From the NCBI GenBank assembly GCA_964458455.1, contig CAYWIY010000001.1, positions 2,303-66,302 of the forward strand: 64,000 nucleotides of DNA. The letters run 5' to 3'. The DNA comes from an uncultured Syntrophomonadaceae bacterium. Lineage in GTDB: Bacteria > Bacillota > Dethiobacteria > DTU022. Below, one piece after another: positions 18,180 to 19,079 of the stretch; positions within the stretch are counted from its first letter, which is position 1, and each line of letters starts with the position of its first letter. The notes under the pieces were generated by a model. It did no database searches and was not told the DNA's origin. It was given only the letters and a program-made list of their open reading frames with translations. The position numbers and the translations under genes were made by a program.

Positions 18180-19016
18180 TTAATAAACAACATCCTGCAC
18201 TATATCATTTCCCCGTTGAGAAAGGCCGTAGCTTTCCAGCTCTTTTTTAATTAGAGCCGGGTCTCCGTAGCCACCTCCAATGCCGTTCAGCCTGGCGGCA
18301 ACGGTTGAGTCGACCAGGCCTTCAATATCAGGGTAATAGGCCTTTATTTCAATCGCCAGTTCTTCTACGTTCTGCAGATAATATTTCTGGTGGTAATCTT
18401 CAGCCAGGTAGAATTTATCCAGGGGCTGAACCTCAGTGTGGATTTTTGTACCCAACTGTCGCTCCACTGCTTCTTTACTTTGCCTGGCTGCATCTTCCTG
18501 ACCTTCATTGTGAAAAAGTATTATGGCCATATACTGCCTGGACCAGCTCCTGGAAGCAGGGTTGTGGTTGGCCCAAAATATTTCCAGGATCTCTTCATAG
18601 GAGAGCTTATCAGGATCATAATCGATTTGAAAAACTTCTGTGTGGTCGCCAAGACGATGATAAGTAGGATTATCGAGGATCCCGCCCGCATAACCAACAC
18701 GGGTCCTGTATACGCCTTCTAACTGCCCGAACCGGGCATCCGGACCCCAAAATCAGCCCAGGCCTAAAGTTGCCGTCTCCAGCTTCAGGGGAACCTGGAG
18801 GTCCAGCGGCGGTTTTGAGTCATTCAAAAAAGCCTTTTCCTGTTCCATATCATAATTATCCTTTCCATATTCAGATTGGTAGCCAGCTTTGTTGTCATTT
18901 CTATTTATAATTGATATACTCTCGTTTTCGTTATACACGATAATCAAAAACAACACAATCATAACTAAAGCTAGAAAAGGCAGCACACGGTAAATTAGAA
19001 TTGTTTTTGGAAACAT
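18180..19016 (-). CDS. msrA: peptide methionine sulfoxide reductase MsrA with an in-frame TGA at the catalytic Cys position (candidate selenocysteine) and an N-terminal signal anchor
   Basis: ORFs 18753..19043 and 18180..18530 are in the same frame, separated only by TGA at 18750..18752. The read-through protein is …[36 protein letters not shown]…AEDYHQKYYLQN…, which is the MsrA GCFWG active-site motif with TGA replacing TGC. Best start is ATG at 19016 (RBS GGAAAGGA 6 nt upstream), giving an N-terminal TM helix ILIYRVLPFLALVMIVLFLIIVY. Confidence 0.65.
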
Positions 19017-19079
19017 AAGAAATCCTTTCCATGGCTGGCTCAACTAAACTGTGCCTCTTATAACCAGCCAGTTGTTAGC

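What the first reader, a model, noticed from the sequence alone, without database searches (positions are those of the whole stretch)
18180..19043. msrA with in-frame TGA at the catalytic Cys codon: candidate selenocysteine MsrA with an N-terminal membrane anchor
Two adjacent ORFs (18753..19043 and 18180..18530) share a frame and are separated only by TGA at 18750..18752. Read through, the product is …[33 protein letters not shown]… with a C-terminal …AEDYHQKYYLQN…. That is the MsrA active site GCFWG with TGA in place of TGC, which is the signature of a Sec-containing MsrA. Such enzymes have been reported in a few anaerobic Firmicutes and algae. A GC-rich stem-loop (UGCCCGG-UUC-GGGCA) begins about 14 nt after the UGA, where a bacterial SECIS would sit. 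The best-supported start is ATG 19016 (RBS GGAAAGGA), which adds a hydrophobic signal-anchor helix. That would make this an extracytoplasmic selenoprotein, which is unusual. The alternative start at M66 has RBS AAAGGA and would give a cytoplasmic form.
Basis: partly seen in the sequence, partly recalled or inferred. Interest (0 to 1): 0.75.

Follow-up and report, generated by a model that had tools for sequence, protein, structure and literature searches.

The report
Selenocysteine MsrA with export anchor
This is a real gene for a methionine-sulfoxide repair enzyme whose catalytic residue is selenocysteine, encoded by a recoded UGA stop codon; the enzyme type is already known, but this copy and most of its relatives also carry an export or membrane-anchor signal plus a conserved second start codon that would make a cytoplasmic form.

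Summary
That codon aligns with the catalytic Cys of MsrA (GCFWG).

The best solved match is the Clostridium oremlandii selenoprotein MsrA (E 6e-58), including its C-terminal helical domain. The protein has no Cys.

- 78 of the 80 most similar loci from species-representative genomes, across many phyla, carry TGA at this codon.
- A 6-bp hairpin with an invariant GUU loop starts 14 nt downstream and covaries at three pairs.
- Two independent metagenome assemblies (99.7-99.9% identical) keep the TGA.
- TGA ends 9 of 43 other window genes, and prfB is present.
- dN/dS is about 0.06-0.07 on both sides of the TGA.

The gene is therefore a genuine Sec-MsrA, a known and experimentally characterised family.

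What is new is the N-terminus. About 73% of the Sec-form relatives have a lipobox, Tat or hydrophobic signal, so export is the norm here. Many also keep an internal ATG with a Shine-Dalgarno site 31-33 codons before Sec (window ATG 18848). This suggests an anchored and a cytoplasmic isoform.

No sel genes lie in the window, so the Sec machinery is untested.

The parts
18180..19016 (-). Long-form msrA coding sequence: 278 codons including Sec88, with stop TAA at 18182..18180
   Evidence: Searches show a continuous frame with one TGA. Gene callers on the independent assemblies L082 and L083 start the upstream 87-aa piece at the same ATG.
19023..19030 (-). Shine-Dalgarno-like GGAAAGGA, 6 nt upstream of ATG 19016
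   Evidence: Read directly from the sequence. Relatives with hydrophobic N-termini also have a start codon with an SD site upstream of that segment.
18933..19004 (-). N-terminal hydrophobic segment (residues 5-28, TILIYRVLPFLALVMIVLFLIIVY). Predicted uncleaved signal-anchor with N-in, C-out topology. It has no lipobox Cys and no AxA cleavage site.
   Evidence: Kyte-Doolittle maximum is 3.68 over 13 residues. K4 and R10 precede the segment and NENE follows it. The closest relatives L001 and L081 have a lipoprotein signal at this place.
18849..18932 (-). Poorly conserved polar linker (residues 29-56)
   Evidence: The linker sequence diverges almost completely between the window, L001 and L081, while the frame and the GK[DE] codons are kept.
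18859..18866 (-). Internal Shine-Dalgarno-like GGAAAGGA embedded in codons G-K-D, 10 nt upstream of the internal ATG
   Evidence: Duplex energy with the anti-SD is -5.7 kcal/mol. The same motif and spacing occur in L001, L081 and L002.
18846..18848 (-). Internal in-frame ATG, 31 codons before the Sec codon. Candidate start of a 222-aa cytoplasmic form.
   Evidence: ATG frequency peaks at offsets -31 and -33 (15 of 78 loci each, against a 1-3% background). It is the sole start in relatives that lack a hydrophobic N-terminus.
18753..18755 (-). UGA decoded as selenocysteine (catalytic residue, motif G-U-F-W-G)
   Evidence: Searches show TGA in 78 of 80 relatives. Searches show the same TGA in two independent assemblies.
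18724..18738 (-). SECIS-type hairpin UGCCCG-GUU-CGGGCA, starting 14 nt after the UGA
   Evidence: Alignment A1. 85.7% of cells are paired, against 20-57% when the partners are slid, and 0 of 500 shuffles reach this. Compensatory changes occur at three pairs. 71 of 78 Sec forms keep at least 5 of 6 pairs, against 2 of 6 Cys forms.
18360..18776 (-). MsrA catalytic (PMSR) domain, residues 81-219 of the long form
   Evidence: Pfam PF01625 E 3.6e-41. TIGR00401 scores 127 bits, above its 108 cut-off.
18195..18323 (-). C-terminal helical domain typical of the clostridial selenoprotein MsrA
   Evidence: PF20939 E 3.4e-4, 20.8 bits, just under the 23.7 cut-off. The phmmer alignment to 4LWJ, 4U66 and 7C13 runs through chain residue 194.

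Best explanation
The locus is one functional msrA gene for a 1-Sec methionine-S-sulfoxide reductase of the Clostridium oremlandii (CoMsrA) type.

Sec decoding. During translation the UGA at 18755..18753 is not read as stop. The hairpin that starts 14 nt downstream (18738..18724, GUU loop) recruits SelB with Sec-tRNA(Sec), and selenocysteine is inserted into the G-U-F-W-G active site.

Catalysis. The selenolate attacks methionine-S-sulfoxide, releases Met and becomes a selenenic acid. The protein has no Cys, so an external thiol reductant must regenerate it. For CoMsrA that reductant is a glutaredoxin rather than thioredoxin.

Two in-frame starts are likely used.
- ATG 19016 gives a 278-aa form with an N-terminal signal-anchor. 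This would place the enzyme on the outer face of the membrane.
- ATG 18848, 31 codons before Sec, gives a 222-aa cytoplasmic form.

Status of each step.
- Shown here: frame continuity, homology, family-wide TGA, the covarying hairpin, purifying selection on both sides of the TGA, and family-wide export signals and internal SD-ATG.
- Inferred: actual Sec insertion in this organism, topology, use of both starts, and the identity of the reductant.
For: Homology and position of the TGA:
- Searches give MsrA homology with the TGA on the catalytic Cys. The best PDB hits are the CoMsrA structures 4LWJ, 4U66 and 7C13 (E about 6e-58), aligned over residues 5-194.
- Searches show TGA in 78 of the 80 best loci from GTDB species representatives, spread over many phyla.

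Hairpin:
- Searches show covariation at 18:32 (CG 31, UA 16, AU 11), 19:31 (UA 38, GC 29) and 23:27 (GC 63, AU 9), with an invariant GUU loop.
- 0 of 500 shuffles reach the observed pairing or covariation.
- Searches show the hairpin is degraded in 4 of 6 Cys forms.

Not an error or a reassigned codon:
- Searches show two independent assemblies at 99.7-99.9% identity that keep the TGA.
- One search shows TGA terminating 9 of 43 window genes, and prfB with its +1 frameshift site is present. UGA is therefore normally a stop in this organism.
- One search gives dN/dS of about 0.06-0.07 both upstream and downstream of the TGA, against L001 and L081.

N-terminus:
- Searches show that 56 of 77 Sec-form loci have a lipobox, Tat or other hydrophobic N-terminus.
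- Searches cover the internal ATG at -31/-33. The median SD energy is -7.8 kcal/mol, against -2.1 at other linker positions (Mann-Whitney p 9e-23).
- 40 of 80 loci have both features.

Literature:
- PMC4479559 describes CoMsrA: 209 aa, Sec16, no Cys, helical domain 145-209, reduced by Grx and not Trx.
- PMC13188914 lists MsrA among experimentally verified bacterial selenoproteins, with a GUFWG/H motif.
Against: - No selA, selB, selC or selD is in the 64-kb window. The organism's Sec machinery is therefore unverified.
- Single-sequence folding of the hairpin region is not significantly better than shuffles (z -1.1 and -1.6). The RNA evidence rests entirely on covariation.
- No Rfam family matches the hairpin.
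- No CcdA/DsbD or thioredoxin-like gene is linked to msrA, either here or in 150 neighbouring ORFs of relatives. An exported form therefore has no identified electron donor.
- Use of either start is inferred from sequence only. In the window the internal SD is weaker (-5.7 kcal/mol) than in many relatives.
Confidence: 0.85

Rival explanations
1. The gene is a pseudogene, or the TGA is a sequencing or assembly error. A TGC/TGT Cys codon was hit by a nonsense change, and the gene is dead or mis-assembled.
For: A single-base change (TGC or TGT to TGA) would suffice. Gene callers split the gene into 87-aa and 116-aa pieces.
Against: - The same TGA is found in two independent assemblies that differ elsewhere.
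- TGA is present in 78 of 80 relatives.
- A covarying hairpin lies downstream.
- dN/dS is about 0.06-0.07 on both sides of the TGA.
Confidence: 0.02
2. The UGA is read through, but not as selenocysteine. It might be decoded as Trp, Gly or Cys through a reassigned code or near-cognate suppression.
For: Some public gene calls translate this codon as Trp. P0034 and P0024 read GWFWGPD, and searches show the codon is TGA. No sel genes are in the window.
Against: - TGA ends 9 of 43 ordinary genes in the window, and RF2 (prfB) is present with its autoregulatory frameshift site.
- The codon sits exactly at a redox-active Cys position.
- The characterised homologue is a Sec protein (PMC4479559).
- The hairpin has the small G-containing apical loop described for bacterial SECIS elements (PMC1088965).
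Confidence: 0.03
3. Only the long form is made. All protein starts at ATG 19016 and is membrane-anchored outside the cell, and the internal ATG is just a Met codon.
For: - The hydrophobic N-terminus is in frame with a good SD site.
- 73% of relatives carry export signals of several independent types: lipobox, Tat and anchor.
- 18 of 80 relatives have no SD-ATG in the linker.
Against: The ATG at -31/-33 with a strong SD site is conserved across phyla, although the surrounding linker is not. It is the sole start in 13 relatives that lack a signal.
Confidence: 0.25
4. Only the short cytoplasmic form is made. Translation starts at ATG 18848 and the upstream hydrophobic reading frame is not expressed. 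This would match the cytoplasmic CoMsrA.
For: - The internal start is the conserved one.
- Protein conservation begins sharply at this Met.
- A cytoplasmic location fits the known Grx-dependent recycling (PMC4479559).
- No extracytoplasmic reductant gene is linked.
Against: - The upstream frame stays open and hydrophobic in the window, L001, L081 and L002-L004 despite sequence turnover.
- Relatives have textbook lipoboxes and Tat motifs.
- ATG 19016 has its own SD site.
Confidence: 0.2

Closest known systems
Selenoprotein MsrA of Clostridium (Alkaliphilus) oremlandii OhILAs (CoMsrA; PDB 4LWJ, 4U66, 7C13; Pfam PF01625 + PF20939)
   Same: - Sec sits at the catalytic GxFWG position.
- There is no Cys anywhere else in the protein (1-Sec type).
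- The catalytic domain is followed by the distinctive C-terminal helical domain.
- The alignment covers 190 residues at E about 6e-58 (PMC4479559).
   Different: CoMsrA is a 209-aa cytoplasmic protein with Sec at residue 16. The window protein differs in three ways:
- it has a conserved segment of about 20 residues (PPxD...P...ETAT) before the active site;
- it has a polar linker and an N-terminal hydrophobic anchor;
- it has a second in-frame start 31 codons before Sec.
Extracytoplasmic Cys-type Msr systems: S. pneumoniae SpMsrAB2 with Etrx1/2 and CcdA (PMC3914529), Neisseria PilB/MsrAB (PMC6372556), and periplasmic MsrAB of Haemophilus (PMC9404787)
   Same: An MsrA domain is placed outside the cytoplasmic membrane by an N-terminal signal or anchor. 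For PilB, a secreted form and a truncated cytoplasmic form were once proposed.
   Different: - Those enzymes use Cys.
- They are MsrA-MsrB fusions.
- They are genetically linked to CcdA and thioredoxin-like partners. No such partner is linked here or in relatives.
- The PilB two-form claim is disputed (PMC6372556).
Bacterial SECIS elements (fdhF-type hairpin immediately 3' of UGA)
   Same: It is a coding-region hairpin starting 14 nt after the UGA, with a small apical loop containing G. This is the feature stated in PMC1088965. The hairpin covaries across 78 sequences.
   Different: The stem is very short (6 bp) with a 3-nt GUU loop. No Rfam model covers it. SelB binding is untested.
Bacterial N-terminal proteoform pairs from alternative in-frame initiation (review PMC13515050)
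   Same: An internal in-frame ATG with its own SD site would remove a targeting sequence and change the protein's localisation.
   Different: The evidence here is purely comparative. No ribosome profiling or N-terminomics data exist for this organism.

Membership tests
Sec-containing MsrA (CoMsrA type) | MsrA (PMSR) catalytic domain above curated cut-offs | tested here: met
   PF01625 scores 141.4 bits against a cut-off of 23.7. TIGR00401 scores 127 bits against a cut-off of 108.1.
Sec-containing MsrA (CoMsrA type) | In-frame UGA aligned with the catalytic Cys of GCFWG | tested here: met
   The residue after LGLG aligns with C16 of 4U66 and 7C13. The same column is TGA in 78 of 80 relatives.
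Sec-containing MsrA (CoMsrA type) | SECIS-type hairpin just downstream of the UGA, with a small G-containing apical loop | tested here: met
   The hairpin lies at 18738..18724 with a GUU loop. Three pairs covary, 0 of 500 shuffles match the observed values, and slid controls pair at 20-57% against 85.7% observed. The alternative fold shows no covariation.
Sec-containing MsrA (CoMsrA type) | C-terminal helical domain (PF20939) | tested here: met
   The Pfam hit is marginal: 20.8 bits against a 23.7 cut-off, E 3.4e-4. The pairwise alignment to CoMsrA continues through chain residues 145-194.
Sec-containing MsrA (CoMsrA type) | No resolving Cys (1-Cys/1-Sec type) | tested here: met
   The 278-aa translation contains no Cys.
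Sec-containing MsrA (CoMsrA type) | Host encodes selA, selB, selD and tRNA-Sec | not testable with these tools
   None lies in the 64-kb window. The tRNAs found are Val and Ala plus a tmRNA, and the Pfam scan covered 43 ORFs. The rest of the genome is not available.
Sec-containing MsrA (CoMsrA type) | Selenium actually incorporated, and enzyme activity demonstrated | not testable with these tools
   This needs 75Se labelling, mass spectrometry or an enzyme assay.
Extracytoplasmic Msr systems (SpMsrAB2/Etrx/CcdA type) | N-terminal signal peptide or membrane anchor | tested here: met
   There is a hydrophobic stretch of 18-24 residues with positive charges on its N-side. This is a prediction only.
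Extracytoplasmic Msr systems (SpMsrAB2/Etrx/CcdA type) | Linked CcdA/DsbD and thioredoxin-like lipoprotein genes | tested here: not met
   None is in the window. None recurs among the 150 neighbouring ORFs of relatives, where only MsrB recurs, 9 times.
Alternative-initiation N-terminal proteoform pair | Internal in-frame start codon with an SD site at canonical spacing, conserved in homologues | tested here: met
   ATG 18848 with GGAAAGGA upstream. The family-wide peak is at -31/-33, and SD energy is a median -7.8 against -2.1 kcal/mol, p 9e-23.
Alternative-initiation N-terminal proteoform pair | Both protein forms detected | not testable with these tools
   This needs initiation-site ribosome profiling, N-terminomics or Western blots of cell fractions.

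The most novel reading that the evidence does not exclude
Across many bacterial phyla, the CoMsrA-like selenoprotein MsrA is built as a two-start gene. An upstream start adds a lipoprotein, Tat or anchor signal that exports the selenoenzyme. A conserved internal SD-ATG, 31-33 codons before the Sec codon, makes a cytoplasmic copy from the same mRNA.

Exported Sec-MsrA would then be the common state rather than the exception. It would work outside the cell without a genetically linked CcdA/thioredoxin relay, which implies an unknown extracytoplasmic reductant.
Probability: 0.4. Interest if true: 0.6.

Novelty: new variant of a known kind. Interest (0 to 1): 0.38.

Why it matters
The enzyme class itself is established: it has been characterised biochemically, its structure is solved, and a Pfam domain is named after it. 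The Sec call mainly corrects an annotation. Public databases hold this family mostly as truncated 180-aa or 116-aa fragments, or with Trp in place of Sec.

The added value lies in the architecture.
- If most Sec-MsrAs are exported lipoproteins or anchored proteins, selenoenzymes would be routine parts of envelope oxidative-damage repair in anaerobes.
- That raises the question of what reduces a Cys-free selenenic-acid enzyme outside the cytoplasm.
- The conserved internal start gives a clean, testable example of dual localisation by alternative initiation in bacteria.

Tried and rejected
- Rfam, at gathering thresholds on the whole window and at permissive thresholds on 18640-18800, found no SECIS family. 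The only hit was a chance pRNA match at E 8.
- Single-sequence RNA folding is not informative: z -1.14 for 71 nt and -1.59 for 31 nt.
- The 31-nt minimum-energy fold is a different helix (columns 11-18 with 24-31). It shows no covariation, with 228 of 500 shuffles as good, so I rejected it.
- I looked for selA, selB, selD and tRNA-Sec in the window and found none. The window is a core region: secA, prfB, ftsEX, uvrBAC, rapZ, whiA, rpoN, pgk, tpi, gpmI, eno, rnr, smpB and ssrA.
- I looked for a linked CcdA or thioredoxin reductant relay in 150 neighbouring ORFs of 79 relatives. There was none, and only MsrB recurs.
I relied on the sequence match to solved CoMsrA structures instead.
- Kim et al. 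2009 and Kim et al. 2011 (PMC2671064, PMC3062254) are not held. Their content is cited only through PMC4479559 and PMC13188914.
- I considered the Neisseria PilB two-form case as a precedent. A later study disputes it.
- The promoter and terminator scan gave no minus-strand promoter between the upstream gene and msrA, and no terminator after msrA. Co-transcription with the Wzy_C-like gene is possible but untested.

Full report
**1. The observation**

On the minus strand, the frame that runs from 19043 to the TAA at 18182..18180 has exactly one internal stop. It is a TGA at 18755..18753. The translation reads ...[34 protein letters not shown]...FYLAEDYHQKYYLQN...

With the stop replaced by Cys, the product matches:
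- Pfam PMSR at E 3.6e-41, over residues 81-219;
- TIGR00401 at 127 bits, above its cut-off of 108;
- more weakly, PF20939, [quoted passage not shown], at E 3.4e-4.

The best solved relatives are the Clostridium oremlandii MsrA structures 4LWJ, 4U66 and 7C13, which are Sec16Cys forms of a natural selenoprotein. They match at E about 6e-58 over 190 residues, and their catalytic Cys falls on the window's TGA. The window protein contains no Cys at all. CoMsrA likewise has none; it is described as a 1-Cys-type enzyme with Sec16 and a helical domain at residues 145-209 (PMC4479559).

**2. Is the TGA real, and is it a stop elsewhere in this organism?**

The exact 116-aa C-terminal ORF is found on two independently assembled metagenome contigs:
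- L082, from ENA ERZ27266011, is 99.73% identical to the window over 6.3 kb.
- L083, from Logan SRR9330141, is 99.88% identical.

Both keep the TGA and the frame. Within msrA they differ from the window by one base elsewhere, giving Y55N.

TGA ends 9 of 43 other genes in the window. prfB (RF2) is present with its classical CTT TGA +1 frameshift site. UGA is therefore an ordinary stop in this organism, and reading it here must be site-specific.

Against the closest relatives (L001 and L081, 78-79% amino-acid identity), dN/dS is about 0.06-0.07 for the 31 codons before the TGA. It is the same for the 190 codons after it. Both sides are therefore translated in this frame.

**3. Comparative evidence for Sec**

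I scanned species-representative genomes with the part of the protein that follows the TGA, so the query itself does not favour TGA over TGC. The scan returned 80 best loci out of at least 550 relatives.
- 78 of the 80 have TGA at the catalytic codon and two have TGT.
- They come from Bacillota, Chloroflexota, Deltaproteobacteria, Nitrospirota, Actinomycetota, Planctomycetota, Acidobacteriota, Spirochaetota and Synergistota.
- The nearest are Syntrophomonadaceae MAGs from soda-lake sediments.

In the large protein database, the closest entries are 180-aa fragments that begin "MEGVYRT", just after the TGA. Other entries carry Trp at the site, which I confirmed to be TGA mistranslated.

Sec-MsrA is listed among experimentally verified bacterial selenoproteins, with a GUFWG/H motif (PMC13188914). 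It was noted in Syntrophobacter as early as 2006 (PMC1794560).

**4. The hairpin**

I aligned 66 nt from the UGA for 79 Sec forms, without gaps (A1).
- RNAalifold and a direct pair count both recover one helix: columns 18-23 paired with 27-32, with an invariant GUU loop. In the window this is UGCCCG-GUU-CGGGCA at 18738..18724, starting 14 nt after the UGA.
- Three pairs show compensatory change: 18:32 (CG 31, UA 16, AU 11), 19:31 (UA 38, GC 29) and 23:27 (GC 63, AU 9).
- 85.7% of cells are paired, against 20-57% when the partners are slid.
- No shuffle out of 500 reaches the observed pairing or covariation.

Several of the compensatory changes involve amino-acid changes on both arms (DA..GQ, DS..GS, ES..GI). 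The helix is therefore not a by-product of the protein sequence.

Among Sec forms, 71 of 78 keep at least 5 of 6 pairs. Among six Cys forms the counts are 6, 5, 4, 3, 3 and 1.

Caveats on the RNA evidence:
- Single-sequence folding is not significant.
- An alternative minimum-energy helix has no covariation.
- Rfam has no matching family.

A small apical loop containing G is the stated hallmark of bacterial SECIS elements (PMC1088965).

**5. The N-terminus**

ATG 19016, with SD GGAAAGGA 6 nt upstream, adds MFPKTILIYRVLPFLALVMIVLFLIIVYNENE... This is an 18-24-residue hydrophobic stretch with K/R before it and acidic residues after it. It has no lipobox Cys and no AxA cleavage site, so it is probably an uncleaved N-in/C-out anchor.

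The closest relatives have lipoprotein signals at this place: L001 has ..MLIIGGC and L081 has ..LLFTAGC.

Among 77 analysable Sec-form loci:
- 25 have a lipobox;
- 4 have a Tat motif plus a lipobox;
- 1 has a Tat-like signal;
- 26 have another hydrophobic N-terminus;
- 21 have none by my thresholds, and some of these look Tat-like on inspection (L029, L036, L038).

Export or anchoring is therefore the majority condition in this subfamily, achieved with several different signal types. The reviews I could read do not mention it (PMC13188914, PMC9312934; searches).

**6. A conserved internal start**

The linker between the signal and the catalytic domain is not conserved, with one exception. An ATG lies 31 or 33 codons before Sec in 15 + 15 of 78 loci, against a background of 1-3%. 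It is preceded at canonical spacing by strong SD sequences, for example AAAGGAGGATTTC-ATG and CAGGAGGTTGCT-ATG.
- The best linker ATG has a median duplex energy with the anti-SD of -7.8 kcal/mol.
- Other in-frame linker positions have a median of -2.1 kcal/mol (Mann-Whitney p 9e-23).
- 49% of these ATGs score -8 kcal/mol or lower, against 4.7% of other positions.

How the two features combine across 80 loci:

| Hydrophobic N-terminus | Internal SD-ATG | Loci |
|---|---|---|
| yes | yes | 40 |
| no | yes (it is the sole start) | 13 |
| yes | no | 18 |
| no | no | 9 |

In the window, the internal ATG is at 18848..18846, codon -31. GGAAAGGA lies 10 nt upstream, at -5.7 kcal/mol, embedded in codons G-K-D. 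L001, L081 and L002 share the same arrangement.

Protein conservation starts sharply at this Met: [32 protein letters not shown] is 84% identical to L001.

The most economical reading is that the gene makes two isoforms:
- an anchored or exported form of 278 aa;
- a cytoplasmic form of 222 aa, with Sec at residue 32.

Alternative in-frame initiation that changes localisation is a recognised but little-tested phenomenon in bacteria (PMC13515050). The older PilB two-form claim is disputed (PMC6372556).

**7. Context**

The window is a core chromosomal region. It carries recD2, hpf, secA, prfB, ftsEX, ctpA-like proteases, uvrBAC, rapZ, whiA, rpoN, pgk-tpi-gpmI-eno, rnr, smpB and ssrA.

msrA follows a 918-aa Wzy_C/TPR membrane protein by 64 nt. 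That protein is itself preceded by a beta-helix (NosD-like) protein. This order is conserved in L081, L082, L084 and L085, but not outside this clade. tRNA-Val lies just downstream.

There are no sel genes in the window. No CcdA/DsbD or thioredoxin-like gene is linked here or in relatives, and only MsrB recurs, in 9 of 150 neighbouring ORFs. The known surface Msr systems depend on CcdA and Etrx (PMC3914529), so the reductant of an exported form is unknown.

**8. Verdict**

The family is known and structurally characterised, so that part is a new member of a known kind and an annotation fix.

The export signal plus the conserved internal start is a variant architecture that appears undescribed in the literature available to me. 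It is inferred from sequence only.

My confidence that the gene is a real Sec-MsrA is about 0.85-0.9. For localisation, I put the two-isoform reading at about 0.4-0.45, long form only at about 0.25, and short form only at about 0.2.

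Noticed in passing
window 55474-55545 (minus strand), upstream of ORF 54423..55382: prfB (RF2) shows the classical programmed +1 frameshift. A short ORF, MLKEQLEELALQKKRFEEMRASL, ends at CTT TGA (55479..55474), and the PCRF domain continues in the +1 frame.
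   Followed up: partly
window 23792-26448 (+): A Fur-family regulator (possibly PerR-like) lies directly upstream of a KatG catalase-peroxidase. This is about 5 kb from msrA, so several oxidative-stress genes sit close together.
   Followed up: no
window 19022-19032 and 18858-18868 (minus strand): The same 11-mer, ATGGAAAGGAT, precedes both candidate msrA starts. It carries the SD-like GGAAAGGA in each case.
   Followed up: partly
P0001-P0021, P0024, P0034, P0064; loci L090, L091: Public protein collections hold this family mostly in two faulty forms. One is truncated calls of 180 aa or fewer that start just after the TGA. The other has the TGA translated as Trp (GWFWGPD). I confirmed TGA with an intact hairpin in L090 and L091.
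   Followed up: yes
window 11409-11954 (minus strand): A 181-aa ORF matches only positions 173-331 of the Amidohydro_1 profile, and there is too little room upstream for the rest. It is probably a gene fragment or pseudogene. Two intact amidohydrolase paralogues lie at 15380-16603 and 16707-17897.
   Followed up: no
window 17990-18139 (minus strand): tRNA-Val (CAC) lies 116 nt downstream of the msrA stop. It has its own promoter-like TTTTCA-18-TATAAT at 18139..18110. No terminator-like site separates msrA from it.
   Followed up: no
loci L041, L089 (P0022), L091 and 9 of 150 neighbour ORFs (A2): MsrB (SelR) is the only recurrent neighbour of these Sec-MsrA genes. In some cases it is fused upstream of the MsrA domain.
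   Followed up: partly
L018 versus L043: These are two closely related deltaproteobacterial copies. L043 has a lipoprotein signal plus the internal SD-ATG. L018 keeps the homologous linker and SD-ATG but has lost the open hydrophobic N-terminus. This suggests recent switching between a two-start and a short-only design.
   Followed up: no
L086 (P0031): This Cys-form homologue (TGT) still has a perfect 6-of-6 hairpin. That is consistent with a recent Sec-to-Cys conversion.
   Followed up: no
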